This document shows, piece after piece, positions 12,874 to 40,864 of a DNA stretch of 59,362 nucleotides (position 1 is its first letter; each line of letters starts with the position of its first letter). The position numbers and the translations under genes are program-made. The stretch is taken from NCBI GenBank assembly GCA_965373035.1, contig CBDVEP010000002.1:1-59362 (forward strand), in the 5' to 3' direction. Below the pieces are notes generated by a model. The model saw only the letters and a program-made list of their open reading frames with translations. It was not told where the DNA came from and did no database searches. The stretch comes from an uncultured bacterium. Lineage in GTDB: Bacteria; Spirochaetota; JAHITG01.

Positions 12874-12888
12874 TTCAAATCTCCTTAA

Positions 12889-13805: not shown

Positions 13806-13825
13806 GATTCTACCTTATTAATATT

Positions 13826-13977: not shown

Positions 13978-14020
13978 ATTCTTTGTTCTTTTCTCCTTCA
14001 TATACGGTTGAATAATCATC

Positions 14021-15271: not shown

Positions 15272-15280
15272 CCCTTAATT

Positions 15281-15411: not shown

Positions 15412-15418
15412 TTCTTTC

Positions 15419-16861: not shown

Positions 16862-18324
16862 ATAAGAAGTTTAACTGCAAACTGATCAAAATCCTTGTAA
16901 TAATCTAAATTATTGGCATATTCTATTTCAAGGCTAATATGTTCAAATAGTTCACTTTTTGCTGCAATATAAAAAGCATTTATTTTTTTTACACCGCCAG
17001 AAAATGTCCCTTTTTTTGCTTTTTGAAATTGATAAATAATTTTTATCTGAAATTGCTTTAAATAAGTTTCTTCTAATCTTACTTGATGTTCTACTACTGT
17101 TCCATTTTTAAGAAAAGGTACAATTTCATTAAATTTAAATTTATGCTCTTTATATCCATATCCTATACTTGTTTTTTTTAAAAAATATTGTCTGACTATA
17201 CCAAAATACCCTTCCCGTCCACTGTAAGAATTATCTTCCGAATTAAAACTTCTTCTTATCTGATATTTGTTATCCAGGTAAACAGGAGCATATTTTTCAT
17301 CCAGTTTATTATAATTAAGTTCAATAACTGTCTGAAAAATTCCAACATATTCCCCTGCTATACTGGGGATTTTAATTCCTGCATTCCAGACAACTGGCTG
17401 TGAATGTGAATCTGATTTTTTAGTAAATAAATGTTTATCAATGTCAAAAAAATTTGTCTGAATAGTATAGTTTTTAATCTTAGAAAAAGAAACACCATAG
17501 ATACCGTTACATTTAAGATATTGAAAAAAATCCAGATTTAATTCTCCTAATACATATCTATTCTGAAAAACCTGACTGTATAAATCCTTCAGTGAAGTAT
17601 ATTGTAACTCCTCATTTAAAAACATAGCTGAACTGTTAAAAGAAAAAATATCATTTTCAGGCATTTTATAATCTATTTTTCCTCCATACCACCATGTTGG
17701 TCTTATTTTTTGTTCTATAGCACTGGTATAACCCATATCAATAGTAGAATAATCCCTGTCTATATTAACATCAATAGTAGGAACAGCATCAAAAAGACCT
17801 GATTCCTCTGGATTTACACCATTATTTGCTATAAAAGTTTGAAGAGAAAAACCGGAATACTCGAAAGAAAATTCCAATCCTCTAAAAATATCTCCTTCCC
17901 ATGGATAATTTTTTAATAAATAAGGTGAATAATTTAAATAAAGGCTTCCTAATTTTATATTTATATTAGCTTTACTTTTATACGCTGCCCCAAGGGAATT
18001 AATAAAAAACTGCCTGTCATCCCGCTTCCAGTGAAATTGAGAATATTCTGATTTAAATAAAGTATAAATAAACAGCTTTTCACTTAAGTTAACTCTCATT
18101 TTTAATTCAAGCTGCTGAAAAATTTCATTGGCTTTATTTGGAAAATTAGTATTGCAGCTAAACCGTGTTTTTGCCATTGTAAAAACCACAGCTTCATAAA
18201 ATTCAATCACACTGTCTTCAGAATAAACTGAATTTGAAAAAATAAAAATAAACCCAATGCATACAATAAAAATGTGTATTAATAAAACTTTTATATAATT
18301 TCTATTATTTTTATAAGATGCCAT
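16849..18324 (-). CDS. Predicted outer-membrane beta-barrel of unknown family (491 aa); paralog of the downstream gene, with a 13-nt overlap
   Basis: N-terminal anchor LLIHIFIVCIGFIFIFSNSVYS and a C-terminal ...LLIWGF. Homologous blocks are shared with 15419-16861. Confidence 0.55.
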   Translation of the reverse strand: MASYKNNRNYIKVLLIHIFIVCIGFIFIFSNSVYSEDSVIEFYEAVVFTMAKTRFSCNTNFPNKANEIFQQLELKMRVNLSEKLFIYTLFKSEYSQFHWKRDDRQFFINSLGAAYKSKANINIKLGSLYLNYSPYLLKNYPWEGDIFRGLEFSFEYSGFSLQTFIANNGVNPEESGLFDAVPTIDVNIDRDYSTIDMGYTSAIEQKIRPTWWYGGKIDYKMPENDIFSFNSSAMFLNEELQYTSLKDLYSQVFQNRYVLGELNLDFFQYLKCNGIYGVSFSKIKNYTIQTNFFDIDKHLFTKKSDSHSQPVVWNAGIKIPSIAGEYVGIFQTVIELNYNKLDEKYAPVYLDNKYQIRRSFNSEDNSYSGREGYFGIVRQYFLKKTSIGYGYKEHKFKFNEIVPFLKNGTVVEHQVRLEETYLKQFQIKIIYQFQKAKKGTFSGGVKKINAFYIAAKSELFEHISLEIEYANNLDYYKDFDQFAVKLLIWGF

Positions 18325-18349
18325 ATATTATACCTCCACTGGTTTATGA

Positions 18350-18376
18350 CAGGGACAGGTTTAAAACCTGTCCCTG
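18350..18376. promoter_or_regulatory. GC-rich 11-bp perfect hairpin between GH35 and the barrel pair
   Basis: cagggacaggt-ttaaa-acctgtccctg. No U-tract follows on the minus strand, so it is not a canonical intrinsic terminator. The GGAGG SD and ATG of the next gene follow ~20 nt later. Confidence 0.5.
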
Positions 18377-18386
18377 CTGTATCATT

Positions 18387-21628: not shown

Positions 21629-21919
21629 ATGAAAAAAGAAATCTTTAAAAAAGCTTTAGCTAAAATCATCCGCATTAGTAAAGAGTTTGGTGCAGAAAAA
21701 GTGTTCTTATTCGGTTCCTGTCTTGAGGAAGTTGAATCAGCACAAGATATTGATATAGCAGTAAAAGGAATCAAACCAGAAAAATTTTTTGAAATGTACG
21801 GTAAAATTTTAGGTGTTGTAGATAATGAAATAGATCTAATTCCATTAGAAGATACAAGAAAACATTTTGCTAAATGTATCATAAAAAGAGGAAGATTACT
21901 ATATGGAAAAAAAGCTTGA
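21629..21919 (+). CDS. Minimal nucleotidyltransferase (MntA-like antitoxin)
   Basis: The G-S...D-x-D motif is present as LFGSCLEEVESAQDIDIAV. The size is 96 aa. Overlaps the downstream HEPN-like gene by 17 nt. Confidence 0.75.
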   Translation: MKKEIFKKALAKIIRISKEFGAEKVFLFGSCLEEVESAQDIDIAVKGIKPEKFFEMYGKILGVVDNEIDLIPLEDTRKHFAKCIIKRGRLLYGKKA

Positions 21920-22364
21920 GCAATTAAAAGCAGATATATTAGATGAAATAAAGGCAATAGAACAAGTTTTAGAAGATTTGTCCTCTCTTAAAAATAATTT
22001 AAATCCTGATAAAATAGATAGTTCTCAAAAAGCAGCAATAGGAACATTTTTAATGAATTTTTATGTAGGAGTAGAGAACATTGTTAAACGAATAAGTAAA
22101 GAATATTATCAAACTATGCCTAAAGGAAACAGTTGGCATAAAGAACTTCTTGATTTGTCTTATAGTCCACCTCAAGGGAAAAACCCTATTTTAAATAAAA
22201 ATATAGTAGATAGACTGAATCCTTATAGAGGATTTAGACATTTATTCATTAGTGGATATGGATTTAAGCTAAGATTGGAGTTGATGAATTCATTAATAAA
22301 TAATATTGAGTCCCTGTGGATTGATATAAAGAGGGCCATTGAAAAATTCCAGAGTAAGTTATAG
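21903..22364 (+). CDS. HepT-like HEPN-domain protein (putative RNase toxin)
   Basis: All-helical 153-aa protein with a C-terminal YRGFRHLFISGYGF motif (R-x-x-RH...Y). This motif is shared with the second pair (LLRFRHFKRYYFEMEY). Shows the canonical MNT-upstream/HEPN-downstream overlap. Confidence 0.6.
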   Translation: MEKKLEQLKADILDEIKAIEQVLEDLSSLKNNLNPDKIDSSQKAAIGTFLMNFYVGVENIVKRISKEYYQTMPKGNSWHKELLDLSYSPPQGKNPILNKNIVDRLNPYRGFRHLFISGYGFKLRLELMNSLINNIESLWIDIKRAIEKFQSKL

Positions 22365-22645: not shown

Positions 22646-23812
22646 ATGGTAAAAATAATGTTTAAAAGGATATTAAAAATAAATCTACCCAAAGGAAAAT
22701 CAGCTTTTCTTTGGGGTCCTCGAAAGACCGGCAAATCCACATATTTAAAAAAATACTTTCCAAATAATTTATATTATGATTTTTTAAATACAGATCTATA
22801 TTTTGAATTATTAAAAAGACCTGCTTATTTAAGAGAATTGATTTTAGCTGAAAATAAATCACTATTAACCAGTCCTATTATTATTGATGAAGTACAGAAA
22901 GTCCCATCTGTTTTAGAGGAAGTACACTGGCTTATAGAGAATAAAGGACTTTCATTTATTTTATGTGGATCAAGTGCCCGGAAGTTGAAAAGAGGAAAAG
23001 CCAATTTATTAGGTGGACGGGCATGGCGATTTGAAATGTTTCCTTTAATTTCACGTGAAGTAAAAAATTTAGAACTTCTTAAAACATTAAATAATGGATT
23101 GATTCCTTCTCATTATATTGAACAAGATAGTAAACGCTCATTAAAAGCTTATGTTCAGGATTATTTAAAAGAAGAAATATTTGCTGAAGGGTTGATTCGA
23201 AATATTCCTGCATTTTCACGATTTTTTGATGTTATAAGATATTCTCATGGACAATTAATAAATTATTCCAATATTGCCCGTGATACAGGAGTTGATTCGA
23301 AAACTATTCGCGAATATTTTCAAATCTTGATAGATACATTAATAGGTATATTCATTGAGCCTTTCACCTTACACCCAAATAGACAAATTATAAATAAAAT
23401 GCCTAAGTTTTACTTATTTGATGTTGGAGTTGCAGGAAGTATTCAAAAACGTTTTATCATTGAAGAAAAAGGATCAGAATTTGGAAATGCTTTTGAGCAT
23501 TTTATATTAATGGAATTACTTGCCCATCGGAAATATACTGAACTGGATTATAAAATAAAATATTGGAGAACAAAAACCGGGCATGAGGTAGATTTTATTT
23601 TAGAGGATGGATTAATTGCCATTGAAGTTAAAAGTAAAAGCCGAGTTGATAAAAGAGATTTAAAAAGTATTGAACAATTTTGTTTAGATTATAAACCACG
23701 TTTGGCAATAGTTGTAACTAATGAAAAATATCGAAGAAAAGTAAATAATATTTTATTACTTCCCTGGAAAAATTTTTTAAATATACTTTGGGAAGGGGAT
23801 ATTATAAAATAA
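22646..23812 (+). CDS. AAA+ ATPase with C-terminal DUF4143-type domain
   Basis: Walker A is GPRKTGKST and Walker B is IIIDEVQ. The length and C-terminal pattern are typical of the COG1373-type ATPases. The start may instead be the ATG at 22658. Confidence 0.75.
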   Translation: MVKIMFKRILKINLPKGKSAFLWGPRKTGKSTYLKKYFPNNLYYDFLNTDLYFELLKRPAYLRELILAENKSLLTSPIIIDEVQKVPSVLEEVHWLIENKGLSFILCGSSARKLKRGKANLLGGRAWRFEMFPLISREVKNLELLKTLNNGLIPSHYIEQDSKRSLKAYVQDYLKEEIFAEGLIRNIPAFSRFFDVIRYSHGQLINYSNIARDTGVDSKTIREYFQILIDTLIGIFIEPFTLHPNRQIINKMPKFYLFDVGVAGSIQKRFIIEEKGSEFGNAFEHFILMELLAHRKYTELDYKIKYWRTKTGHEVDFILEDGLIAIEVKSKSRVDKRDLKSIEQFCLDYKPRLAIVVTNEKYRRKVNNILLLPWKNFLNILWEGDIIK

Positions 23813-31053: not shown

Positions 31054-31059
31054 CGTAAT

Positions 31060-31149
31060 GGGGATGGTGCGTACTTTGTAACATTATTAAAATTATATTT
31101 TATTTAGATATATTGATATTATAATGTTACAAAGTGACGCACCGTCCCC
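31060..31149. repeat. Long hairpin (26-27-bp GC-rich arms, ~37-nt AT loop) between convergent genes; either a bidirectional terminator or a MITE-like element
   Basis: ggggatggtgcgtactttgtaacatt (31060-31085) pairs with aatgttacaaagtgacgcaccgtcccc (31123-31149). There is one mismatch and one 1-nt bulge. Confidence 0.6.
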
Positions 31150-31158
31150 ACTACCGCA

Positions 31159-31656
31159 TTATCCTTTTACAATTTTTTTTAGTTTTTCTTTTATAAACAC
31201 ACGGTCAATTGCATCTTTTCCTCTGGGGGATTGCTTAAGTTTCCACAATAATTCTAAACTAGCAAAGGGTATTTTTACTCCTCGGATTTTAACTATTATA
31301 ATAGATTTGGATGCTTCTTTATAAAATATTCCACAAGCTGATTTCATTAAATCAATAACTATTTCATCAGCAATACGGATAACATTATAGTTTTTAATAT
31401 CCCCTGGTTTAATTTCTTTTATAGCTTTATCTGGAAGATATAAAAGAGCTTCTCTTAATAATTGATGATTTTCTTCTGTGATATCTATTAGAAGATCAAT
31501 GTCTTCAGTAGCACGAACAAAACCATGCTGAATTATTGCCATACCACCAATAACAATATACTTCACTTTTTTTTTATTTAATTGTCGGCATAATTCTAAT
31601 AAATCATCTAAAGTTGGTGGTCGTGATTCTAACGAGCTAGAATTTTGCGCGTCCAT
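31159..31656 (-). CDS. Nucleotidyltransferase-fold protein (GG...DIDLL type), cassette 1
   Basis: KVKYIVIGGMAIIQHGFVRATEDIDLLID. It is a paralog of 40412-40864 (KVKYLVVGAYAVIYYTEPRFTKDIDLLVE). Confidence 0.6.
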   Translation of the reverse strand: MDAQNSSSLESRPPTLDDLLELCRQLNKKKVKYIVIGGMAIIQHGFVRATEDIDLLIDITEENHQLLREALLYLPDKAIKEIKPGDIKNYNVIRIADEIVIDLMKSACGIFYKEASKSIIIVKIRGVKIPFASLELLWKLKQSPRGKDAIDRVFIKEKLKKIVKG

Positions 31657-31814
31657 TCTTCTTTTTCCTTAAATGTTTTAAATCGATAGACCCCTTTAGG
31701 AATAAAAGGTTTTTTTCCACGAATTTCTAAAACTAATTTTAATAAATTATCCGCAGCCTCAAGACCTCCTCTGCAAGGTTTTCTTTTACCAATTATTTTA
31801 ATTGATTCTTCCAT
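31629..31814 (-). CDS. Small protein preceding and overlapping the nucleotidyltransferase (putative partner)
   Basis: 61 aa, with a 28-nt overlap with the downstream NTase. The C-terminal IPKGVYRFKTFKEKEEW motif is one I associate with small partners of such NTases. I could not perform a search. Confidence 0.45.
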   Translation of the reverse strand: MEESIKIIGKRKPCRGGLEAADNLLKLVLEIRGKKPFIPKGVYRFKTFKEKEEWTRKILAR

Positions 31815-31920
31815 ACTTTGAAGGTAATATTAAATATTATAAAGTCAAGACTGATTGTCAACAATTCATGATGGTTTTATCATTTTCTTTCACTTTTTCT
31901 TTTTGGTTTTTAGTTTTACT

Positions 31921-32406
31921 TTACTGTTTTATTTTTTTTAAAAATATACAAAATTGCCTGAAATCTTTTTTAAGTAATGATTTACATTGTTTAAATTTCT
32001 TCTGCAAATAATCAATCTTATCCCAATCATATTCCATTTCAAAATAATATCGTTTAAAATGCCGAAATCGTAATAGCTCTAAAAGATATTTATAGGATTT
32101 TTCTGATATTACTGGCTTTCTGATATTATCTATTTCTAACTGCATCTTATGAAGTAAATCAATATGCCATTTATCTTTTTCTAAACTATTCTCAAAAAAT
32201 TGGGATATACGTAAAAAAAGTGTTTCAAGGCATGTATAAAATTTTTCCATAATATCTGAAATAATAATAGCAGATGTTGTATTCCTTCCTAAAAATGTAA
32301 ATTCTTTTTGTAAAAATTCATCATAATATGAATAAATTTCTTTTAATATTTTTTGGGTATTATTTATCTCCCCTATAAGTATATCGATTTCTTCATTCTC
32401 TTTCAT
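31921..32406 (-). CDS. HepT-like HEPN-domain protein (putative RNase toxin), pair 2
   Basis: Helical 161-aa protein with the LLRFRHFKRYYFEMEY motif. Shows a 14-nt overlap with the upstream MNT gene. Confidence 0.6.
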   Translation of the reverse strand: MKENEEIDILIGEINNTQKILKEIYSYYDEFLQKEFTFLGRNTTSAIIISDIMEKFYTCLETLFLRISQFFENSLEKDKWHIDLLHKMQLEIDNIRKPVISEKSYKYLLELLRFRHFKRYYFEMEYDWDKIDYLQKKFKQCKSLLKKDFRQFCIFLKKIKQ

Positions 32407-32773
32407 ATACTAATTTCCCTCTCTTTTTGATATTGTCAGCATGAAGAGGATGAATTTTTTCAATTTGAATTAAATCTAAAAAAAAATCAGTTAATTGTTT
32501 AGCATCCTCATACATAGCAAAAAATTTTTCTGGAGAGGTTATTCCCTCTACTGCTATATCAATATCTGAAATTTCAGAAAAACATCTTTTATTAAGAAGG
32601 GACCCCCATTGATAAATACGTTTAGGATGATATTTTTCAATTAGCATATAAACTATGGTATGAAAATTTTGCCATGCTTTTTGAAATAATTCACTTCTTT
32701 TTTTCTCCTGCTCTTCTTTTTTATGCTTTAGAAATTTTTTTGCTTTTTTAATGTTAAATGTTTTACTTTCCAT
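32393..32773 (-). CDS. Minimal nucleotidyltransferase (MntA-like antitoxin), pair 2
   Basis: IYQWGSLLNKRCFSEISDIDIAVEG (G-S...D-x-D). It starts 16 nt after the stop of the RsbW-like kinase gene. Confidence 0.7.
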   Translation of the reverse strand: MESKTFNIKKAKKFLKHKKEEQEKKRSELFQKAWQNFHTIVYMLIEKYHPKRIYQWGSLLNKRCFSEISDIDIAVEGITSPEKFFAMYEDAKQLTDFFLDLIQIEKIHPLHADNIKKRGKLVYERE

Positions 32774-32789
32774 TTATCTTTTAGTAAAT

Positions 32790-33215
32790 CTATAATAAAT
32801 ATTTTACTAATTCAATTTTATTTCCTCTTTTCATACCAGCATGGTAAACAATTTCATCTACCAGCCTTCGCATTAAATAAACCCCCAAACCATTTTGTTT
32901 ATATCTTTCAATATGCTGATTTAAATCAGGGTCAGATACATCAAGTGGATTAAATTTATCACCTTCATCCTCGATAATTATAGTAATATTTTTATCAAAC
33001 TGTTTGATTGTAATATATATAGGCTTATCACTTTCTCCCTCATAATTATGCATTATAATATTACTACAGGCTTCATCTACAGCTATCTGAAACCTGTATA
33101 TATCATCTTCATTTAATGATGTCTGTACTAAGGATTCACATACACAGGCTCTTATTTTTTCTAAATTTATTTTATGACTTAAAAATTTTTTCTTTTCAAT
33201 TAATTTTTTTTCCAT
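32790..33215 (-). CDS. Anti-sigma-factor-type serine kinase (RsbW/SpoIIAB-like, HATPase_c fold)
   Basis: The N-box is DEACSNIIMHNY and the G-box is NGLGVYLMRRLVDEI. The size is 141 aa. Confidence 0.75.
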   Translation of the reverse strand: MEKKLIEKKKFLSHKINLEKIRACVCESLVQTSLNEDDIYRFQIAVDEACSNIIMHNYEGESDKPIYITIKQFDKNITIIIEDEGDKFNPLDVSDPDLNQHIERYKQNGLGVYLMRRLVDEIVYHAGMKRGNKIELVKYLL

Positions 33216-33229
33216 TATATTATTGCTCC

Positions 33230-33778
33230 TTATTTATAAGATATATTTCCATTACTATCTATAGTAATTGCACATTGACACAAAGGACATCTATACTTGC
33301 CTGATTTTGCAGCTTTCAGTCTTTTTCCGCAAACCTTACATTCAAAAGAAAAAGGGAAAACAACCTTGCCTTCTACATCGCTGAGAACCGGCCTGTCATC
33401 TCCACTGAACAGTGACTGTGCTTTTTGAAATGATTCTTCATATGTATCACATATATTAAAAAATTTAGTAAAGCCTAATAAATTAAAAACTTCAAGAACT
33501 TTTGGGTGGACACTATAAATAACTAAAAATCCCTTATTTTTAAGTTCTTCTGAAATAGCCACAAAACTTCCTATCCCGGCACTGCTTAAATAACTTAATC
33601 CATGACAATTCATGATCAATTTTGTATCTCCATTTTTAATATTTTTTATAATAGTTTCCTGAAAATATTTTGAATTATAAGAATCAACATAACCTGTAAG
33701 AGTAACAAGACACATTTGAGAGTTTTCTCTGATTTCTTCAAAAACTATTCTTATTTTTTTATCTTGTAATTCCATCAC
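33230..33778 (-). CDS. STAS-domain anti-anti-sigma-type protein with a C-terminal zinc-ribbon extension
   Basis: STAS core with a phosphorylatable-serine context HGLSYLSSAGIGSFV. The C-terminus CKVCGKRLKAAKSGKYRCPLCQC carries two CxxC pairs. Confidence 0.75.
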   Translation of the reverse strand: MMELQDKKIRIVFEEIRENSQMCLVTLTGYVDSYNSKYFQETIIKNIKNGDTKLIMNCHGLSYLSSAGIGSFVAISEELKNKGFLVIYSVHPKVLEVFNLLGFTKFFNICDTYEESFQKAQSLFSGDDRPVLSDVEGKVVFPFSFECKVCGKRLKAAKSGKYRCPLCQCAITIDSNGNISYK

Positions 33779-33807
33779 TTTTCTCCTTGATGATTATTTT
33801 TACTTAC

Positions 33808-33846
33808 AGTAATGGGACAATTATCGAGGGAAATTGTCCCATTACT
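33808..33846. promoter_or_regulatory. 15-bp perfect hairpin/palindrome in the 112-nt gap upstream of the STAS gene
   Basis: agtaatgggacaatt-atcgaggga-aattgtcccattact. No U-run follows on the minus strand. It lies ~30 nt upstream of the AAGGAG SD of the STAS gene. Confidence 0.5.
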
Positions 33847-33890
33847 ATTTACAAAATATTTAATTTTCTTTTCAGTAATAATATCATTTA

Positions 33891-35399
33891 TTATACCCTT
33901 ATAGCTATTATAGCAATATCATCATACTGCTGGGCTTCACCACAAAATCGATTAACATCATCTATTATCTCTTTAATTAATAAATCAGTTTGAAGCTGAC
34001 TATTTTTTAGTATCACATCTAACAGCCTTTTTAACTCATATTCATCCTCTTGTAAATTTTTTGCTTCTGTTATACCATCTGTATACTGAATAATAATATC
34101 ACCTTTATTCAAATTTAAAAACTTACCGCATAATGATTCCTCAAAAATCTTTGTTTCCTGAACACCTAATGGGATGCCTGGTTCTGAATATACTTCACAT
34201 TTATTTAAATCTTTCTTATAAACAATCAATTGATTGTGACCTGCATTAGCAAACTGCAATGTTATTTTATTTGGGTCTAATATACCATAAAAAGCAGTAA
34301 TAAACATTCCTCTTTTTATATCAGGAAAAATATACCTATTTGTATTAACCAGAACCTGAAAAGCAGTGCTGGTGGAATAAGCCTGTGCTTTAAGAATACT
34401 CCGTACCATCACCATAACCATAGCACCTGGTACACCTTTTCCTGAAACATCAGCAACAACTATCCCTAACCTCCCATCATCTAATTTAAAAATGTCATAA
34501 TAATCACCACCAACTTCTTTTGCCGGCTTATAATAAGCTGATATTGATACTCCCGGCAACTCAGGGATTTTTTTAGGAATAAGAGAAGTTTGAATACTTG
34601 TTGCTATATCTAATTCATATTTCATTCTCTCCTGTTCCAGCATAATATTCTGGGCTTCTTCAAGTTTACCTGTCATAATATTAAATTGATTTGCTAAAAT
34701 TTCTAATTCATCCCTGGTTTTAACAATAATTTTATATTCAAGATTACCCCCGCCTATCTCTTCAGCTCCCCTGGCTATTTGCATAATTGGCTTTACAATA
34801 AATCCTGCCAGTAAAAAAGAAATGCCTATTCCTAAAATCAAAATAATTAAAGAAATCACAAAAACTGTTAAACTAGCTTTATTTAACGCTCGTTGAATTA
34901 CTTCATAAGAAAATTCAACATGTGCATATCCCAGTATAGCTTCTTCTTCTTTTCCTTTTTTAAAAGTTTTTACTCTTATAGGATATAAAAAATCATATAT
35001 TTTACTTTCTTCTTTTATATAAAGACGAGGAGCAAAGTCATCTCCTTCTTTTTTACTTTGCGAATGCCATATTCGGGTATCATACGTTTGTCCTACTTCA
35101 TTTATATTATTATGAGAAATAACCTCACCTTCAGGATTTAAAATAAAAACCTCAACAACACCATCCTCTTTCATTATGTCTGTAATAGCCTGAAAAATTA
35201 AAAGTTCATCAGATGTGGTAAGTCCTTCTGCTGCCTGTGAAGCAAGACTTTTTGAAAGCAGAATACCCTGTCTTTGAATTCTGGTAATCAGCTCTTTTTT
35301 CTCCTGATTTAACAAGATAACACTGATAGTAACTACAACAACTGCAATTAATATTCCTACAAGTGCTCCAAACTTTATTTTTATACTAATATGCTTCAT
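33891..35399 (-). CDS. Membrane-bound sensor phosphatase: TM, extracytoplasmic domain, TM, HAMP, PP2C/SpoIIE (RsbU-like)
   Basis: Two hydrophobic segments (ALVGILIAVVVVTISVILL; LTVFVISLIILILGIGISFLLAGFIV). A HAMP-like PIMQIARGAEEIGGGNLEYKI follows, and the PP2C motif is EVGGDYYDIF...VADVSGKG. Confidence 0.8.
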   Translation of the reverse strand: MKHISIKIKFGALVGILIAVVVVTISVILLNQEKKELITRIQRQGILLSKSLASQAAEGLTTSDELLIFQAITDIMKEDGVVEVFILNPEGEVISHNNINEVGQTYDTRIWHSQSKKEGDDFAPRLYIKEESKIYDFLYPIRVKTFKKGKEEEAILGYAHVEFSYEVIQRALNKASLTVFVISLIILILGIGISFLLAGFIVKPIMQIARGAEEIGGGNLEYKIIVKTRDELEILANQFNIMTGKLEEAQNIMLEQERMKYELDIATSIQTSLIPKKIPELPGVSISAYYKPAKEVGGDYYDIFKLDDGRLGIVVADVSGKGVPGAMVMVMVRSILKAQAYSTSTAFQVLVNTNRYIFPDIKRGMFITAFYGILDPNKITLQFANAGHNQLIVYKKDLNKCEVYSEPGIPLGVQETKIFEESLCGKFLNLNKGDIIIQYTDGITEAKNLQEDEYELKRLLDVILKNSQLQTDLLIKEIIDDVNRFCGEAQQYDDIAIIAIRV

Positions 35400-35403
35400 T
35401 CAT

Positions 35404-36543
35404 TTATTCCACAATGATTATACGATTTTTTCCTGCTTTCTTTGCTTTATATAAAGCTTCATCAGCTTTTTTAATTAATTTATCTTTATTAAGAATTTGA
35501 TTTTTTTTCGCTGCTGTAACACCAATACTTAAAGTAGTAAAAACCGCTGTTTTATGATCCTCTGCAATAAATTTTTTGGTTTGAACTTCCTCTAATAATC
35601 TTTTAGCTAATATTAATGCTCCAGCAATGTCTGTTTCCGGTAAAAGCAATAAAAACTCATCCCCTCCATACCTTACAGGCATATCTATCTTCTTTCTTAC
35701 GGTTTTCTGAATAATATCTGCAATGCCTTTTAATACAACATTTCCAAAAAGATGCCCATAAGTATCATTAATCATTTTAAAATTATCAATATCAAGTAAA
35801 ACCACACCAACATCTTTCGGATACCTTTTAGCCCGCATGAGCTCTTTTTCCATTGAAATCTGTAAATACTGATAATTAAAAAGCTGGGTTAAATTATCTG
35901 TAACAGACCAATTATAGAGTTTTGCTTTTTCCATTGTAATCAGTGTTATGTTTGTTATAATAGATACAACATAAAAATCTACCATAGTTAAAAAACGTGT
36001 TTTACCAGCTGAGGCTACTTCAATTATACCTAAAATATTATTATCAATAATTAAAGGAATAGCCATTATAGAATGAGTCTTTAATTTTACTATTTTATCA
36101 ACATAACCTATATATCTTTTATCTCTGGATACTTTCCCGATAAATAATGGCTGCATATTTAAAGCTGCATGACCACAAACATCCCTGCCTTCCTTTATAA
36201 AGACATCCTTAAGCTCACTGTAGAAATCATAAGGAAGAAGCCTTTTGTTTTTATAAACCATGGTAACATTAGGATAAAGCAACTTTTTTTCATTATCATA
36301 AAAATAAAAAGTAACACGGCTGGCACCTATTGATTCAGCGGAAAACCCTAAAAACATAGACCTGATTAAAGTCTCATCCTGACCCCCAAGCATATCAATA
36401 AGTTTTATATATTCTTCAAGTGTAGCAATACTGTGTTCTCGCGCTTCTAATAACCTGCCTAAAGTAGAACCTGATTTTTTTTTCTTCTTTTTTTCCTGAG
36501 GTATTTTAATTTTCTCTACTTTTTCATCATTATTTTTTTTCAT
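35404..36543 (-). CDS. GAF-GGDEF diguanylate cyclase
   Basis: VRYGGDEFLLLL is an intact GGDEF. The upstream position of the I-site reads KKID rather than RxxD. A GAF-like N-terminal half is present. A 4-nt gap separates it from the downstream phosphatase gene. Confidence 0.8.
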   Translation of the reverse strand: MKKNNDEKVEKIKIPQEKKKKKKSGSTLGRLLEAREHSIATLEEYIKLIDMLGGQDETLIRSMFLGFSAESIGASRVTFYFYDNEKKLLYPNVTMVYKNKRLLPYDFYSELKDVFIKEGRDVCGHAALNMQPLFIGKVSRDKRYIGYVDKIVKLKTHSIMAIPLIIDNNILGIIEVASAGKTRFLTMVDFYVVSIITNITLITMEKAKLYNWSVTDNLTQLFNYQYLQISMEKELMRAKRYPKDVGVVLLDIDNFKMINDTYGHLFGNVVLKGIADIIQKTVRKKIDMPVRYGGDEFLLLLPETDIAGALILAKRLLEEVQTKKFIAEDHKTAVFTTLSIGVTAAKKNQILNKDKLIKKADEALYKAKKAGKNRIIIVE

Positions 36544-36646
36544 AATATTATACCTTCTCTATTTTAATAATACAATAATATAATATTCAAATAAAATGTC
36601 AATAATTCTATCAACATTCCCGTAATCAATTAGTTATGGGGGAAAT

Positions 36647-36706: not shown

Positions 36707-38845
36707 CTAAATCTCAATCAGATGAACATTTTCCCATTGGGAATAAGATTTAATATGTGTAAATAAAATAATCTGATTCTCATCTAATATAGAATTCAAT
36801 ACATCCTTTACTACTTCAAGACGTTCTTTATCAAAATTAACAAAAGGGTCATCTAAAAACAATGGTAATTGTGTTAAATCATTAATCTCATGCAAAAGTG
36901 CAAGCCTTACAGCAAAATAAAGCTGTTCTTCTGTGCCGCAGCTTAAATTTTTTATAACTTCATTATCTTTATTCTGAACAAAAGGGCTAAAATCCTCATT
37001 TAATATAACCTTTTTATGCATGCCTTTTGTAATATTATTAAAAAACTCTGAAATATTCCTGGATAACCTTCCAATATGTTCTTCCTGGTATTCTTTTATT
37101 GACTCATTTAAAGTATCAACTGCTAATTTATAGGACTTCCTGTAAAGTGTCAGTTTATTTAATTCACTCTCTATTTCTTCCAGTTTATAATTAATACTTG
37201 CAATACTTTCTGTTTCTAAGGTAGTAGAAGCTAATTCTTTATTTAAACTATAAATCTTCTTTTTTAAAACTTCACTTCCGGCATTATTTTCATTTAACTG
37301 CTTTTTTAATTTCTGTATATACTGGATGGAGCTTTCCTTGTTTTTACTTAATGTGGAAAGCCCCGGATTATTCTTGTCCAACTCCTTTAAATCAGTATTA
37401 ACTGAAACAAGATTTTTTTCTTCTTCATTTTTTTTAATATTGTATTCAGAAACATTATTAACTGCATTTAAAGTGTATTTTAAATTTTCTATCTCTTGTG
37501 AAATCTTTTTATATTCTTCATATTTATTTAAAAAACCCTCATTAATTTCTTTATCAGAATGTATTTTAAATTCCTCACTAACACTTGAAATCTTAGCCTG
37601 TAACTCTTCAATTGTTTGATTTTTTGAAAAGATTAAAGTTTCATACTGAAATTTATTCTTAATTCCTTTTATTATTATAAAAGTTAAATAAACTAATGAT
37701 ACTATACCAAGAGCTATACTTATATAAAGCAAAAATTTTTTATCAAATTTTAATCTCACAAAAAAAGTAAGGCTTGCAAGGATTAAACCGTTAATGCCCA
37801 GTACAATACTTTTAATTTGCTGCGAATCACCTTTTTCTATTTTTTTTAACTCCTCTTTTTTTTTAATTAATTCTTTTTTTAATTCTTGTAAATTTTTCAT
37901 AGAATTAACGATTTCATCTGTAATGTCATTAAATTCTGAATAATTCTGAATAATGTCATTTTTAGCATTTAAATCTGCTTTTATCTTATTATACTTTTCA
38001 ATCTCATTATTAAATGTTAAAATTTTTTCTTCATAATTTGTTTTTTCTTTTAACAGGTCAATATACTGTTTACTTAATTCAAATGCTATCTGCTTTTTTC
38101 TAGTTTCTTTATCCAGATATGTTAATTCCTTTTCAAACTTTTTCAAGTTATCTTCCAACTCAGATGACTTTATACTCTGTTCAATAATATGCTCTTTTTT
38201 CATTATCAAACCCTTATATTCATTTTCATAAACCTCAATAGCCTTTTCATTTCTTCTATCTCTTATATCATGCCATGCACTTTTACTGGTTAAATCAAAA
38301 TATTCTTTTATCCATACTTCCAATATATTTTTATAATTTGTACCAACAGCTCCTGTTAAAATATGCTGAATCTCTTTATTAATGTTTGTTTTAATTGACC
38401 TCTGGTAAATAACATTAATATTACGAAAAATTCCTTCATTATTTAATCCCAATACTTTTTTTAAAACATCATAATAAAACTCTTTTTCTTCACTCCGTGA
38501 TTGAGGATGCGCTTTACCTTTAAATAAATTTTCAATAACACTATTTTTATCTTTTTTACTTAAAATAACCTCATTAGACTCAAAATCCCTGGTTAAATTA
38601 AATTCCACATCTTTGTCATGGAATTTAATCTCTATAAAATAGTTATTAGCTGGTTTTTCTGATTTGTAAAGTGCCCACCTGCTTTTATCAAGTCCAAAAA
38701 AACCAGCAATAATTGCTTTTAATAAAGTAGTTTTTCCTGTTTCATTATTTCCATATATCAGGTTTAATTTATCATTTATAAAATTAAATCTGCGAGGTTT
38801 ATAAAAAATCCCGAATCCTTCTATGTTTACCTGTTCAATCTTCAT
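36707..38845 (-). CDS. YhaN/SbcC-like coiled-coil ABC-type ATPase with a central transmembrane hairpin
   Basis: Walker A is GNNETGKTT and the C-terminal Walker B/D-loop is LPLFLDDPFVNFD. Long K/E-rich heptad regions are present. Mid-protein SIVLGINGLILASLTFFV and FLLYISIALGIVSLVYLTFIII form two hydrophobic helices. No CxxC hook is present. Confidence 0.7.
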   Translation of the reverse strand: MKIEQVNIEGFGIFYKPRRFNFINDKLNLIYGNNETGKTTLLKAIIAGFFGLDKSRWALYKSEKPANNYFIEIKFHDKDVEFNLTRDFESNEVILSKKDKNSVIENLFKGKAHPQSRSEEKEFYYDVLKKVLGLNNEGIFRNINVIYQRSIKTNINKEIQHILTGAVGTNYKNILEVWIKEYFDLTSKSAWHDIRDRRNEKAIEVYENEYKGLIMKKEHIIEQSIKSSELEDNLKKFEKELTYLDKETRKKQIAFELSKQYIDLLKEKTNYEEKILTFNNEIEKYNKIKADLNAKNDIIQNYSEFNDITDEIVNSMKNLQELKKELIKKKEELKKIEKGDSQQIKSIVLGINGLILASLTFFVRLKFDKKFLLYISIALGIVSLVYLTFIIIKGIKNKFQYETLIFSKNQTIEELQAKISSVSEEFKIHSDKEINEGFLNKYEEYKKISQEIENLKYTLNAVNNVSEYNIKKNEEEKNLVSVNTDLKELDKNNPGLSTLSKNKESSIQYIQKLKKQLNENNAGSEVLKKKIYSLNKELASTTLETESIASINYKLEEIESELNKLTLYRKSYKLAVDTLNESIKEYQEEHIGRLSRNISEFFNNITKGMHKKVILNEDFSPFVQNKDNEVIKNLSCGTEEQLYFAVRLALLHEINDLTQLPLFLDDPFVNFDKERLEVVKDVLNSILDENQIILFTHIKSYSQWENVHLIEI

Positions 38846-38847
38846 AA

Positions 38848-40038
38848 TTAATCTATCTCTATATTATGACTTCCTTTGTGAAATTTAAAGTCTGGTTCTT
38901 CTTTAGTTTCTGAAGATGTAAAATCCCTTAACCCTAAATTTAGGGCCTGGTTTAATATTCTTTGATGATTTTCAAAAGTTACATTCTTCTCAAGCAATTT
39001 TTTAAAAAACAAACCTCTGATTGTTTCTTCCCTGCTCAATTGCTTTACAACAGTACTTTCTATAAATTTTGCCTCATTATTTATCCTCACATAAAAATAA
39101 TGATCTTCTAAAATCTTAATTAATTCATTTTCATTAATGGAAAAATCTAATACTCCCTGCAAATACAAATCAAGAATTAGCAAGGAGAGTTTATCCCCTT
39201 TTTTAAGTAATGATATTAAATCCCGAATACTTGAAATATCTTCCTTGATCACATCAATAACCCTTTTTTCAATCCGTATTTTTGAAAATTGTATCTTTTT
39301 TATGTTCACTGAATTATTCTGTTTAATTTCAACAACAGCAGAATACCTATCTCCATATTCATCTATAGCTCTGGGAATAAGTGACCCTGTATAAACACAT
39401 TTATGTTCATTATCTACTTCTTTTTCCTTAAACTGATGAAAATGCCCTAATGCAAGATAATTTAATCCTGAATAAGCAAACTCTTCATATGAAAATGGCA
39501 GTTCCCTGTCAGAGATCTTAATCTCCTTTAGTTCAAGTGTGCCGTGTAAAATACCAATGTGAGTACCTTCTTTTTCTATGATTTTAAAATTTTTCAAGGC
39601 TCTCTTATACGGATTATTCACTTCATACACTCCGCTGTAAATAAAAACATGCTGGCTTTTAATGTTTATCTCATCTATTAAGTTAAAACCTGGATTTTTA
39701 ATAATCATTCCTGGAAATTTAAATGTCCGATAAATTGAGTTTTTGTAACTATAACTATCATGATTACCTGGCAGGATATATAATTTTATATTCTTTTCAT
39801 CTACTTTTAAAAAAAGCTCTCTAACCTTTTCAAGAAGCGGCAAATCAGGTCTGGGATTATCAAATAAATCACCTGCTATAATTAAAATATCAATTTCATT
39901 ATATGGATCGCATGTGTAATTGATTAATTTTTCAAAAGCATTAAATGCTTCCTTCATAAGAGAGTCAGCTTTTTGATGGAATGATTTAAATTCTGCTCCA
40001 AGATGTAAATCAGCAGTGTGAAGTATACGGATACTCAT
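38848..40038 (-). CDS. Mre11/SbcD-like metallophosphoesterase (YhaO-type)
   Basis: The calcineurin-like motifs are ILHTADLHLG, IAGDLFD, PGNHD and GHFH. A 2-nt gap separates it from the ATPase gene. Confidence 0.8.
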   Translation of the reverse strand: MSIRILHTADLHLGAEFKSFHQKADSLMKEAFNAFEKLINYTCDPYNEIDILIIAGDLFDNPRPDLPLLEKVRELFLKVDEKNIKLYILPGNHDSYSYKNSIYRTFKFPGMIIKNPGFNLIDEINIKSQHVFIYSGVYEVNNPYKRALKNFKIIEKEGTHIGILHGTLELKEIKISDRELPFSYEEFAYSGLNYLALGHFHQFKEKEVDNEHKCVYTGSLIPRAIDEYGDRYSAVVEIKQNNSVNIKKIQFSKIRIEKRVIDVIKEDISSIRDLISLLKKGDKLSLLILDLYLQGVLDFSINENELIKILEDHYFYVRINNEAKFIESTVVKQLSREETIRGLFFKKLLEKNVTFENHQRILNQALNLGLRDFTSSETKEEPDFKFHKGSHNIEID

Positions 40039-40233
40039 AATGCGTTAATTTATAGTATTAATGTTAAAAATCAAGAAAAATTATTGCTTTACTATAATCG
40101 GTAAGAATAACCTTTTACCTGTTACAGTAAATAGAATTTATTCATTGACAATCTATTAAAAAATAATAGTATAGCATATAAATAGCAAAGTAAACCTATA
40201 AACCAAAAAAAAGAGTTGTTGAGAAAAGGAGAT

Positions 40234-40464
40234 ATGGGAGATAAGAAGCAATATAACATTATGAAAAATAAAAAAATTTGGGAAAGAATGATACCGATTT
40301 CACAGGCTGATGATGATTTTGAACTAAAGTTCTGGCAGGAAGCTGGTGTACAAATGCGTTTTGCAACAGCATGGCAAATGATAAAAGATTTTTATAAAAT
40401 AAGAGGAAAGAATGAAATTAAGCCCCGACTACAAAGATCTGTTCAAAATATTCAACAAATATAA
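40234..40464 (+). CDS. Small protein preceding and overlapping the nucleotidyltransferase, cassette 2 (unrelated in sequence to the cassette 1 partner)
   Basis: I prefer the ATG at 40234 (MGDKKQY...), which is preceded by AAGGAG, to the listed start at 40216. It overlaps the NTase gene by 53 nt. Confidence 0.45.
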   Translation: MGDKKQYNIMKNKKIWERMIPISQADDDFELKFWQEAGVQMRFATAWQMIKDFYKIRGKNEIKPRLQRSVQNIQQI

Positions 40465-40864
40465 AGTAAAATATTTAGTAGTAGGTGCTTATGCTGTTAT
40501 ATATTATACAGAACCTCGTTTTACTAAAGATATTGATTTATTAGTAGAACCTGAAGTAAAAAATGCTGAAAAAGTGTATAAAGCATTATCCAAGTTTGGG
40601 GCACCATTAAACAATATTAAAATTAAAGATTTTATTAATAAAGATTTAATTTACCAGATTGGAGTTGCCCCTATAAGGATAGATATTATAATGAAGCTTC
40701 CTGGAGTTAAATTTAGAAATGCATGGAAAAGAAGAAAACAAACTTTATATGATAAAGTAAGAATTAATATTATTGACATTAGAGATTTAATAAATGCTAA
40801 AGAAAAAATAAAAAGACCTCAGGATATTTTAGATTTAAAAAAACTTAAGAAAAAGAAGAAGTAA
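40412..40864 (+). CDS. Nucleotidyltransferase-fold protein (DIDLL type), cassette 2
   Basis: KVKYLVVGAYAVIYYTEPRFTKDIDLLVEP. The C-terminal RPQDILDLKKL matches RGKDAIDRVFI of the paralog. Confidence 0.6.
   Translation: MKLSPDYKDLFKIFNKYKVKYLVVGAYAVIYYTEPRFTKDIDLLVEPEVKNAEKVYKALSKFGAPLNNIKIKDFINKDLIYQIGVAPIRIDIIMKLPGVKFRNAWKRRKQTLYDKVRINIIDIRDLINAKEKIKRPQDILDLKKLKKKKK

What the first reader, a model, noticed from the sequence alone, without database searches (positions are those of the whole stretch)
31921..36543. Partner-switching module with no sigma factor, led by a diguanylate cyclase and running directly into an MNT/HEPN pair
Seen: on the minus strand, GAF-GGDEF is followed after 4 nt by HAMP-PP2C phosphatase. 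A 112-nt gap carrying a 15-bp perfect palindrome follows, then the STAS-Zn-ribbon gene. The RsbW-like kinase comes 14 nt later and the MNT gene 16 nt after that, and MNT overlaps the HEPN gene by 14 nt. No sigma factor or other known kinase target is encoded nearby.

Established: in RsbU/V/W-type systems the kinase sequesters an output protein until the dephosphorylated STAS partner displaces it. MntA/HepT pairs are type VII TA systems in which the NTase inactivates the HEPN RNase.

Inference: the output of this switch may be c-di-GMP synthesis. More speculatively, it may be control of the co-transcribed HEPN toxin, giving an environmentally gated RNase or persistence switch. I do not recognise that coupling as described.
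Basis: partly seen in the sequence, partly recalled or inferred. Interest (0 to 1): 0.65.

Follow-up and report, generated by a model that had tools for sequence, protein, structure and literature searches.

The report
c-di-GMP partner switch plus hitchhiking toxin-antitoxin cassettes
The gene layout is real, but comparison with related genomes shows a conserved four-gene signalling operon (cyclase, phosphatase, STAS protein, kinase) of an already described kind, with the MNT/HEPN pair being a mobile cassette that landed behind it in this lineage only.

Summary

The conserved unit is GAF-GGDEF / HAMP-PP2C / STAS-Zn-ribbon / RsbW-like kinase. Three syntenic relatives (L005, L006, L088; 65-77% aa identity) carry exactly these four genes. 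In all three, the convergent 946-aa gene follows directly. None has MNT/HEPN or the second small-ORF/NTase pair.

A more distant relative (L001) has an HD-GYP phosphodiesterase right after the kinase. L006 keeps a pseudogene remnant of that gene. The module is therefore tied to c-di-GMP enzymes. Partner switches that control a diguanylate cyclase are already described (BgrR/U/W/V, HsbR/A/D, SiaABCD, Moorella MtT-MtG).

The MNT/HepT-like_2 cassette is promiscuous:
- It occurs in 289 genomic stretches across many phyla.
- The same 14-nt overlap is its commonest form.
- Upstream neighbours in 73 loci fall into 104 Pfam families.
- None of 80 loci has a kinase, STAS or PP2C gene adjacent.
- In 21 of 71 loci it sits 30 nt or less behind an unrelated same-strand gene.

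The window holds four such TA-like cassettes. Read-through co-transcription with the kinase is likely, but functional coupling is not supported.

The parts
36575..36602 (-). Best sigma-70-like promoter match of the region (TTGACA-16-TATTAT, 11/12). It lies 32 nt upstream of the GGDEF start and is the likely operon promoter.
   Evidence: This is a consensus match only.
35404..36543 (-). GAF-GGDEF diguanylate cyclase, 379 aa. The RYGGDEF active-site motif is intact. The I-site position reads KKID rather than RxxD.
   Evidence: Pfam. NCBIfam GGDEF 1.5e-49. The motif is conserved in L088, L006 and L005.
33891..35399 (-). Membrane sensor phosphatase, 502 aa: TM, extracytoplasmic domain (weak sCache_3_2 hit), TM, HAMP, then PP2C/SpoIIE.
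   Evidence: Pfam. The best NCBIfam hit is SiaA over residues 167-502, but at 65 bits against a cut-off of 700. PDB hits are Rv1364c, RssB and SiaA-PP2C 6k4e.
33808..33846 (.). Inverted repeat with 15-bp arms and a 9-nt spacer, in the PP2C-STAS gap. It is specific to this lineage and its function is unknown. It could be an mRNA hairpin, or an operator over a weak promoter-like site at 33820..33793.
   Evidence: Absent from L005, L088, L006 and L001. Not repeated elsewhere in the window.
33230..33778 (-). STAS protein (anti-sigma-antagonist type) with a C-terminal Zn-ribbon. The YLSSAGIG motif is invariant and holds the phospho-acceptor serine at the N-terminus of helix 2. The four Cys (C146, C149, C163, C166) are invariant. 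The start may be the ATG at 33775.
   Evidence: AF2 model with pLDDT 83. Fold matches SpoIIAA/RsbV at TM 0.85-0.90.
32790..33215 (-). RsbW/SpoIIAB-type serine kinase, 141 aa (HATPase_c_2).
   Evidence: Pfam. NCBIfam RsbW 6.7e-19 and SpoIIAB 5e-17, both below the equivalog cut-offs. PDB RsbW 6m36 at 1.3e-12. Orthologues at 56-65% identity in L001, L005, L006 and L088.
31054..32789 (.). Segment present in the window lineage only. It lies between the kinase stop and the stop of the convergent 946-aa gene and holds two TA-like cassettes. The same interval overlaps by about 4 nt in L005, is about 15-30 nt in L088, and is about 400 nt in L006, where it holds the HD-GYP pseudogene.
32393..32773 (-). 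MNT-type nucleotidyltransferase, 126 aa, with motif GS-x11-DID. Putative antitoxin.
   Evidence: Pfam Polbeta. NCBIfam MntA_antitoxin at 31.5 bits against a cut-off of 60. Motif.
31921..32406 (-). HepT-like_2 (PF20797) HEPN-fold protein, 161 aa. The family signature FRHF[KR]RYY is intact. There is no conserved Rx4-6H.
   Evidence: AF2 model with pLDDT 92. The best folds are HEPN toxins 8yuf, 8xdj and 7ae6 at TM 0.6-0.7, with weak E-values.
31834..31861 (-). Promoter-like site (TTGACA-16-TAATAT, 10/12), 20 nt upstream of the 61-aa ORF. The second cassette probably has its own promoter.
31159..31814 (-). Second TA-like pair: a 61-aa ORF (31814..31629) overlapping a 165-aa DUF6036/DUF2204/AbiEii-like NTase (31656..31159).
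   Evidence: A paralogous pair lies at 40216..40864 (+).
31055..31155 (.). Long hairpin (stem of about 32 bp, -47.8 kcal/mol, z = -9.9), lying mainly between the two convergent stop codons, with the outer arm reaching about 4 nt into the 3' end of the NTase gene. Probable bidirectional terminator.
   Evidence: Unique in the window.

Best explanation
Two unrelated things lie side by side.

(A) A conserved, self-promoted four-gene operon encodes a sigma-less partner-switching module wired to c-di-GMP.
- An extracytoplasmic signal acts on the TM-HAMP-PP2C phosphatase.
- The phosphatase removes the phosphate that the RsbW-like kinase places on the conserved serine of the STAS-Zn-ribbon protein.
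- The phosphorylation state of STAS then sets the activity of the co-encoded GAF-GGDEF cyclase. In the ancestor it also set an HD-GYP phosphodiesterase encoded after the kinase.
- STAS could do this by binding the enzyme directly (as in BgrV, HsbA and SiaC). Alternatively it could free or occupy the kinase, which binds the enzyme (as in Moorella MtT-MtG).

(B) Two mobile TA-like cassettes were inserted in this lineage into the convergent junction behind the kinase. They are MNT/HepT-like_2 and a small ORF/DUF6036 NTase pair.
- The MNT/HEPN cassette arrives with essentially no upstream non-coding DNA. It is therefore probably transcribed by read-through from the signalling operon.
- This is how the cassette behaves behind many unrelated genes. 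It does not make the cassette an output of the switch.

Shown: gene content, motifs, synteny, absence of the cassette in relatives, and promiscuity of the cassette.
Inferred: phosphorylation chemistry, STAS- or kinase-to-cyclase contact, and co-transcription.
For: Anatomy and domains.

Synteny:
- L005 and L006 have GGDEF-PP2C-STAS-kinase, then the convergent orthologue of the 946-aa gene.
- L088 adds the upstream AAA712 gene and has roughly 15-30 nt between the kinase and the convergent gene.
- No MNT, HEPN, orf61 or NT165 match was found in any of these loci or in any of 43 STAS loci.

c-di-GMP link:
- The GGDEF motif is conserved.
- L001 has a PAS-HD-GYP gene (HHERWDGEGYP) right after the kinase.
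- L006 has a 56%-identical pseudogene remnant, with an in-frame stop, at the same place.

Precedents:
- BgrU/BgrW control BgrV phosphorylation and hence the cyclase BgrR. Moorella MtT binds the cyclase MtG (PMC7647112, Discussion).
- HsbA~P binds HsbD (PMC5085249).
- Unphosphorylated SiaC activates SiaD (PMC8457831).

Cassette mobility:
- More than 570 relatives at 45-62% identity.
- 289 genome stretches in many phyla.
- MNT lies upstream in at least 67 of 84 cases, and the modal overlap of -14 nt equals that of the window.
- Upstream neighbours in 73 loci fall into 104 Pfam families, none seen in more than 2 loci.
- In 21 of 71 loci the cassette sits 30 nt or less behind a same-strand unrelated gene. 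One example is a Peptidase_M6 gene in L134.
- Family HMMs find no adjacent kinase, STAS or PP2C in 80 loci.
- The window contains a second MNT/HepT-like_2 pair and a second DUF6036 pair.

Transcription: no promoter- or terminator-like site lies between kinase and MNT. Promoter-like sites lie upstream of GGDEF and of orf61.
Against: - There is no expression, interaction or biochemical data, and no RNA run holds the region.
- The link to GGDEF rests on synteny in only four closely related lineages.
- L001 has no GGDEF upstream. More distant PP2C-STAS-kinase triads (L096, L097, L108) have neither GGDEF nor HD-GYP nearby.
- A sigma factor or another target elsewhere in the genome cannot be excluded from a 59-kb window.
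- The kinase-MNT junction is retained in a ~94%-identical strain from another study. The fusion is therefore stable, and transcriptional coupling could have been co-opted.
- The insertion polarity (gain in the window lineage rather than loss in three relatives) rests on parsimony and on the HD-GYP outgroup state, not on a resolved tree.
Confidence: 0.72

Rival explanations
1. The partner switch gates the HEPN toxin, either post-translationally (kinase or STAS acting on MNT or HEPN) or as a designed transcriptional unit. This would give an environmentally controlled RNase or persistence switch.
For: - 16-nt spacing with no promoter- or terminator-like site between kinase and MNT.
- The junction is conserved in a ~94%-identical strain.
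Against: - MNT/HEPN is absent from all three syntenic relatives and from all 43 STAS loci.
- None of 80 HEPN loci has an adjacent kinase, STAS or PP2C gene. The single locus (L038) with such genes has them 1.7-5.6 kb away, beyond a convergent gene.
- Tight spacing behind unrelated genes is typical of this cassette.
- No paper joins HepT/MntA with partner switching.
Confidence: 0.05
2. This is a classical anti-sigma module. The RsbW-like kinase sequesters a sigma factor encoded elsewhere in the genome, and the neighbouring GGDEF and HD-GYP genes are merely co-regulated cargo.
For: - The kinase and the STAS protein match RsbW/SpoIIAB and RsbV/SpoIIAA best, by sequence and by fold.
- Only 59 kb of the genome is visible.
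Against: - No sigma factor lies in the window, or next to the module in L001, L005, L006 or L088.
- c-di-GMP enzymes are repeatedly adjacent on both sides.
- Several RsbU/V/W-type modules are known to work without a sigma factor (PMC7647112, PMC8457831).
Confidence: 0.18
3. The MNT/HepT-like_2 pair is not a toxin-antitoxin system at all. It would be a two-subunit nucleotidyltransferase, with the HEPN-fold protein acting as the substrate-binding subunit, and it would have no growth-arrest role.
For: - The family has no conserved Rx4-6H RNase motif.
- There is no NCBIfam or PADLOC hit for the HEPN partner.
- The MntA model scores below its cut-off.
Against: - The gene order, the 14-nt overlap, the wide patchy distribution and the multi-copy occurrence are TA-like.
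- The best fold matches are AMPylated HEPN toxins.
- Class II HEPN/MNT pairs without RX4H were still toxic and were neutralised by MNT (PMC7641770).
- The invariant Tyr120 and Tyr121 next to the conserved R-H are candidate AMPylation sites.
Confidence: 0.2

Closest known systems
BgrR / BgrU-BgrW-BgrV of Sinorhizobium meliloti (Baena et al. 2019, doi 10.1111/1462-2920.14624; summarised in PMC7647112 and PMC8457831)
   Same: - An RsbU-like PP2C phosphatase and an RsbW-like kinase set the phosphorylation state of an RsbV-like STAS protein.
- That state controls a diguanylate cyclase encoded in the same cluster.
- No sigma factor is involved.
   Different: - Here the phosphatase is a membrane HAMP sensor.
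- The STAS protein carries a C-terminal Zn-ribbon.
- The cyclase has a GAF domain.
- Relatives carry an HD-GYP phosphodiesterase after the kinase.
- Homology to the Bgr proteins was not tested, because their sequences were not at hand.
SiaABCD of Pseudomonas aeruginosa (PMC7647112, PMC8457831)
   Same: - One operon encodes a TM-HAMP-PP2C phosphatase, a small Ser/Thr kinase, a phosphorylatable adaptor with an anti-sigma-antagonist-like fold, and a diguanylate cyclase.
- The unphosphorylated adaptor activates the cyclase.
   Different: - SiaC is a DUF1987 protein, not a PF01740 STAS protein.
- The window kinase matches RsbW/SpoIIAB and shows no SiaB match at E<=0.01 among solved structures.
- The SiaA and SiaD equivalog models score 65 against 700 bits and 143 against 290 bits.
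- The gene order differs.
HptB-HsbR-HsbA-HsbD of Pseudomonas aeruginosa (PMC5085249)
   Same: A STAS anti-sigma antagonist binds a diguanylate cyclase in a phosphorylation-dependent way.
   Different: - HsbR is a response-regulator/PP2C/kinase fusion fed by a phosphorelay.
- HsbA also acts on anti-sigma factors.
- The phosphorylated form is the one that binds the cyclase.
[quoted passage not shown]
   Same: - An MNT gene with a GS...DxD motif lies upstream of, and overlaps, a HEPN-fold gene.
- The pair has a wide patchy distribution and occurs in several copies per genome.
   Different: - The HEPN partner belongs to PF20797 (HepT-like_2). It lacks the RX4HXY motif that defines Class I pairs.
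- The conserved signature is FRHF[KR]RYY.
- The MNT spacing is x11 rather than x10.

Membership tests
RsbU/RsbV/RsbW-type partner-switching module | PP2C (SpoIIE-family) phosphatase | tested here: met
   PF07228 at 1.6e-45 over residues 307-502.
RsbU/RsbV/RsbW-type partner-switching module | Single STAS domain with a conserved phospho-acceptor Ser at the N-terminus of helix 2 | tested here: met
   - PF01740 at 7e-19.
- S64/S65 are invariant within YLSSAGIG in 8 homologues.
- Helix 65-78 follows the serines in the model.
- The fold matches SpoIIAA/RsbV at TM 0.85-0.90.
RsbU/RsbV/RsbW-type partner-switching module | GHKL-type serine kinase of the RsbW/SpoIIAB class | tested here: met
   - PF13581 at 6.9e-25.
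- PDB RsbW at 1.3e-12 and SpoIIAB at 4e-07.
- NCBIfam RsbW and SpoIIAB hits are below the equivalog cut-offs.
RsbU/RsbV/RsbW-type partner-switching module | Cognate sigma factor as the kinase's alternative partner, usually co-encoded | tested here: not met
   No sigma-factor Pfam hit in any ORF of at least 100 aa of the 59-kb window, or beside the module in L001, L005, L006 or L088. The rest of the genome is unseen.
RsbU/RsbV/RsbW-type partner-switching module | Reversible phosphorylation of STAS, and a mutually exclusive binding partner | not testable with these tools
   This needs kinase and phosphatase assays and binding assays.
Partner switch controlling a diguanylate cyclase (Bgr / Hsb / Sia kind) | Catalytically competent GGDEF protein genetically linked to the module | tested here: met
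   The GGDEF gene lies 4 nt upstream of the PP2C gene. Linkage and the RYGGDEF motif are conserved in L005, L006 and L088.
Partner switch controlling a diguanylate cyclase (Bgr / Hsb / Sia kind) | Direct, phosphorylation-dependent contact between the adaptor (or kinase) and the cyclase | not testable with these tools
   No complex prediction or assay was available.
SiaABCD (as orthologues) | SiaA, SiaB, SiaC (DUF1987) and SiaD equivalogs | tested here: not met
   - SiaA model scores 65 bits against a cut-off of 700.
- SiaD model scores 143 bits against 290.
- The adaptor is PF01740, not DUF1987.
- The kinase has no SiaB match among solved structures at E<=0.01.
Type VII HepT/MntA TA, Class I | MNT with GSX10DXD | tested here: inconclusive
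   The motif is GS-x11-DID. NCBIfam MntA scores 31.5 bits against a cut-off of 60.
Type VII HepT/MntA TA, Class I | HEPN with RX4HXY | tested here: not met
   There is no R-x4-6-H in the window protein and none conserved in 28 family members. The conserved signature is FRHF[KR]RYY.
Type VII HepT/MntA TA, Class I | Adjacent two-gene unit with MNT first | tested here: met
   The 14-nt overlap is the modal arrangement (19 loci). MNT lies upstream in at least 67 of 84 cases.
Type VII HepT/MntA TA, Class I | Toxicity of HEPN and neutralisation by AMPylation | not testable with these tools
   This needs expression and mass spectrometry.

The most novel reading that the evidence does not exclude
In this lineage the captured MNT/HepT-like_2 cassette has been co-opted. 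It has no promoter of its own and lies 16 nt behind the kinase gene. Its expression, and possibly its MNT:HEPN balance, would then follow the signalling operon. Alternatively the RsbW-like kinase or the STAS-Zn-ribbon protein acts on MNT or HEPN. Either route would give a signal-gated HEPN effector.

A milder novel reading concerns the STAS protein. STAS plus a C-terminal Zn-ribbon is a large family with no description that I could find: 103 of the 149 best 50%-identity cluster representatives carry it. Its ribbon could be the output-binding element of sigma-less partner switches.
Probability: 0.05. Interest if true: 0.7.

Novelty: new variant of a known kind. Interest (0 to 1): 0.28.

Why it matters
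As posed, the finding would have linked environmental Ser/Thr signalling to a toxin-antitoxin RNase. The comparative evidence says that link is an accident of insertion.

Three modest points remain.
- This is a clean natural example of TA cassettes landing at the 3' end of an operon and borrowing its transcription. It is a caution for guilt-by-association annotation.
- It adds another lineage, an uncultured marine-sediment/cold-seep bacterium, in which a sigma-less RsbU/V/W-type switch is wired to c-di-GMP enzymes. The ancestor carried both a cyclase and an HD-GYP phosphodiesterase.
- It points to a widespread STAS-Zn-ribbon subfamily, with no description that I could find, that could be tested for how partner switches reach non-sigma outputs.

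Tried and rejected
- **Exact look-ups.** Look-ups of the window kinase and HEPN proteins found nothing on record.
- **RNA evidence.** No RNA run holds the region. The 'joints' in the contig lay-out have sides of only 21-25 nt and were disregarded.
- **The 15-bp inverted repeat as a conserved regulatory element.** Rejected. It is absent from L005, L088, L006 and L001 and is not a repeated element of the window. It is not followed by a T-run, so it is not a canonical terminator.
- **SiaABCD orthology.** Rejected, because scores are far below the equivalog cut-offs and the adaptor family differs.
- **Class I HepT membership.** Rejected, because RX4HXY is absent.
- **Rarity of STAS-Zn-ribbon.** The word-index search gave only 8 relatives. 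The exhaustive profile search shows that this was a sensitivity artefact.
- **A general link between STAS-Zn-ribbon and c-di-GMP genes.** Not supported. Relatives at 35-39% identity (L089-L094) are stand-alone in varied contexts. Only L089 has a cNMP-GGDEF gene, 1.7 kb away.
- **L038.** This is the only HEPN locus with PP2C, STAS and kinase genes within 6 kb. They are separated from the cassette by a convergent gene, and the kinase and STAS genes are on the other strand. I judge this to be chance, in a spirochaete MAG.
- **Base composition.** It does not mark the inserted segment.
- **PADLOC.** It gives only weak PDC-S09 hits for the MNT proteins.

Full report
**1. Observation**

- GAF-GGDEF, 36543..35404.
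- 4-nt gap.
- TM-HAMP-PP2C/SpoIIE, 35399..33891.
- 112-nt gap.
- STAS with a C-terminal CxxC-x13-CxxC, 33778..33230.
- 14-nt gap.
- HATPase_c_2 kinase, 33215..32790.
- 16-nt gap.
- MNT (Polbeta), 32773..32393.
- 14-nt overlap.
- HepT-like_2, 32406..31921.

The 'palindrome' is an interrupted inverted repeat. Its arms (33808-33822 and 33832-33846) are 15 bp each, perfectly complementary, and separated by 9 nt. The gap folds well (-29 kcal/mol, z = -5.4).

It consists of a 61-aa ORF (31814..31629) overlapping a 165-aa DUF6036/DUF2204/AbiEii-like nucleotidyltransferase (31656..31159). It is preceded by its own TTGACA-16-TAATAT site.

The best promoter-like site of the region (TTGACA-16-TATTAT) lies just upstream of the GGDEF gene. 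No promoter- or terminator-like site separates kinase and MNT.

No ORF of at least 100 aa in the 59-kb window hits a sigma-factor family.

The window is chromosomal. It carries rpsB-tsf-pyrH-frr-uppS-cdsA-dxr-rseP-ispG.

Source and assembly:
- Public runs that hold the region are marine-sediment and cold-seep metagenomes.
- The nearest named IspG relatives are MAGs labelled 'Spirochaetes bacterium', at 73% identity.
- Contigs from two studies span the kinase-MNT junction, one at 100% and one at ~94% identity. The junction is therefore real and is shared at about species level.

**2. What is conserved**

The STAS-Zn-ribbon protein led to the syntenic relatives.

| Locus | STAS identity | Gene order |
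|---|---|---|
| L005 | 70% | GGDEF-PP2C-STAS-kinase, then the convergent orthologue of the window's 946-aa gene |
| L006 | 72% | GGDEF-PP2C-STAS-kinase, then the convergent orthologue of the window's 946-aa gene |
| L088 | 71% | AAA712-GGDEF-PP2C-STAS-kinase, then the convergent orthologue of the window's 946-aa gene |

The distance from the kinase stop to the convergent stop differs between loci:
- L005: an overlap of about 4 nt.
- L088: about 15-30 nt.
- L006: about 400 nt.
- Window: 1736 nt (31054-32789), holding both TA-like pairs.

No MNT, HEPN, orf61 or NT165 match exists in these loci or in any of the 43 STAS loci retrieved from metagenomes.

A more distant relative, L001 (55%), has PP2C-STAS-kinase followed by a PAS-HD-GYP gene carrying HHERWDGEGYP. 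The 400 nt of L006 are a pseudogene remnant of that same gene, 56% identical over the last 106 residues and with an in-frame stop.

The ancestral slot behind the kinase was therefore occupied by a c-di-GMP phosphodiesterase. It was lost in L005 and L088, is decaying in L006, and is replaced by TA cassettes in the window lineage. Gain of the cassettes in the window lineage is the parsimonious reading.

**3. The MNT/HepT-like_2 cassette is promiscuous**

- The HEPN protein has more than 570 relatives at 45-62% identity.
- A scan of one genome per species found 289 stretches. They occur in Desulfobacterota, Spirochaetes, Chloroflexota, Verrucomicrobiota, Planctomycetota, Bacteroidales and others.
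- In the 80 loci fetched, MNT lies directly upstream in at least 67 of 84 cases. The commonest overlap is 14 nt, as in the window.
- The genes upstream of the cassette in 73 loci fall into 104 Pfam families, none present in more than two loci.
- HMMs built from 13 kinases, 22 STAS and 12 PP2C domains find no such gene adjacent to the cassette in any of the 80 loci.
- One spirochaete locus (L038) has these genes 1.7-5.6 kb away, beyond a convergent gene.
- In 21 of 71 loci the cassette sits 30 nt or less behind, or overlaps, an unrelated same-strand gene. An example is a Peptidase_M6 gene in L134.

The 16-nt spacing in the window is therefore a property of the cassette, not evidence of partnership with the kinase.

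The window itself holds four TA-like cassettes:
- The MNT/HepT-like_2 pair of the finding.
- A second MNT/HepT-like_2 pair at 21629..22364 (+), only 21% and 34% identical to the first.
- The small-ORF/DUF6036 pair just downstream of the finding.
- A second small-ORF/DUF6036 pair at 40216..40864 (+).

**4. What the HEPN protein is**

- It belongs to PF20797.
- Its AF2 model (pLDDT 92) is a helical bundle. The best PDB matches are HEPN toxins, including AMPylated ones (8yuf, 8xdj, 7ae6) and YutE. TM-scores are 0.6-0.7, but E-values are weak.
- Neither it nor its family has a conserved Rx4-6H. The invariant signature is FRHF[KR]RYY.
- It therefore fails the RX4HXY criterion of Class I HepT/MntA (PMC7641770).
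- MNT has GS-x11-DID.
- A TA function is likely by analogy. Class II pairs without RX4H were toxic. It is not shown here.

**5. How the conserved module most likely works**

Sequence and fold place the components in known classes:
- The kinase groups with RsbW/SpoIIAB.
- The STAS domain groups with RsbV/SpoIIAA.
- The phosphatase shares the TM-HAMP-PP2C architecture of SiaA, but it is far below the SiaA equivalog cut-off.

Other features:
- The phospho-acceptor motif YLSSAGIG and the four Zn-ribbon cysteines are invariant.
- The RYGGDEF motif is conserved.

Published systems give the template:
- BgrU/BgrW set the phosphorylation of BgrV, which controls the cyclase BgrR.
- Moorella MtT kinase binds the cyclase MtG (PMC7647112).
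- HsbA~P binds HsbD (PMC5085249).
- Unphosphorylated SiaC activates SiaD, and SiaB phosphorylation prevents this (PMC8457831).

My proposal has three steps. A signal sensed outside the membrane changes PP2C activity. This changes the phosphorylation state of STAS-ZnR. That state changes the activity of the GAF-GGDEF cyclase, and ancestrally of the HD-GYP enzyme. The contact is made either by STAS, perhaps through its Zn-ribbon, or by the kinase.

These steps are inferred. The synteny and the motifs are shown.

**6. Comparison and novelty**

- A sigma-less partner switch with a diguanylate cyclase output is an established kind.
- This instance differs in its domain architecture: a HAMP sensor phosphatase, a STAS-Zn-ribbon protein, a GAF-GGDEF cyclase and an ancestral HD-GYP enzyme.
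- The STAS-Zn-ribbon architecture is widespread. Of the 149 best 50%-identity cluster representatives, 103 are proteins of 150-260 aa ending in CxxC-x8-22-CxxC.
- A full-text search found no paper joining 'STAS domain' and 'zinc ribbon'.
- The proposed coupling to the HEPN toxin is not supported. It survives only as a low-probability, lineage-specific co-option through read-through transcription.

**7. Verdict**

The c-di-GMP output is plausible but already known in kind. HEPN control is not supported.
- Interest is low to moderate.

Noticed in passing
window 21629-22364 (+): A second MNT/HepT-like_2 pair: MNT of 96 aa with GS-x9-DID, and HEPN of 153 aa, with a 17-nt overlap. It sits at a strand-switch junction. 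It is only 34% and 21% identical to the pair in the finding, so it was acquired independently.
   Followed up: partly
window 40216-40864 (+): A second small-ORF (82 aa) plus DUF6036 nucleotidyltransferase (150 aa) pair. The NTase is 41% identical over its N-terminus to the one at 31159-31656. It lies between the SbcD-like gene and ispG.
   Followed up: partly
window 33230-33778; proteins P0129-P0277: STAS plus a C-terminal CxxC...CxxC Zn-ribbon is a large family. Of the 149 best 50%-identity cluster representatives, 103 carry it. No paper joining 'STAS domain' and 'zinc ribbon' was found. More distant members (L089-L094) are stand-alone genes in varied contexts.
   Followed up: partly
L006 3329-3655; L001 11093-11980: A PAS-HD-GYP phosphodiesterase gene follows the kinase in L001. 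In L006 the same gene survives as a pseudogene with an in-frame stop, which records gene decay at this slot.
   Followed up: yes
window 31055-31155: A very stable hairpin (stem of about 32 bp, -47.8 kcal/mol, z = -9.9), lying mainly between two convergent stop codons and reaching about 4 nt into the 3' end of the NTase gene. It is unique in the window and is a probable bidirectional terminator.
   Followed up: partly
window 4870-4970, 9681-9800, 12891-12960; L001 10990-11080: Tandem heptamer repeats (TAGTTTA/TAGTTCG type) lie in intergenic gaps of the glycoside-hydrolase/CBM30 gene cluster. Telomere-like heptamers (GGTTTAG/ACTTTAG) lie between the kinase and the HD-GYP gene in L001. Their function is unknown.
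   Followed up: no
window 3816, 13884, 13954, 15387: A motif of about 33 nt, TTATTCGTGTTTATTCGTGGCTAATTCTTTCTT, is repeated four times upstream of genes in the carbohydrate-active cluster. It is a candidate shared regulatory site.
   Followed up: no
window 2202-2309, 56135-56273, 58277-58416; 56682-56788 and 59256-59362: Repeats of 94-98% identity flank a DUF4143/AAA_14 ATPase gene (56982-58124). A second DUF4143/AAA_14 gene lies at 22646-23812, next to the second MNT/HEPN pair. The same pairing of a DUF4143 gene near the cassette is seen in L133.
   Followed up: no
window 36707-40038 (-): An SbcD/Mre11-like phosphoesterase (396 aa) plus an SMC/Rad50-like ATPase (712 aa) lie directly upstream of the GGDEF gene. 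The ATPase's best PADLOC hit is LmuB at 3.7e-18. The ATPase is syntenic in L088. Whether the pair serves repair or defence is undecided.
   Followed up: partly
window 2385-21149 (-): A large cluster of secreted carbohydrate-active proteins: GH2, GH35, repeated CBM30/fn3 modules in a 1578-aa protein with internal repeats of about 1.45 kb, and a glucodextranase-like module.
   Followed up: no
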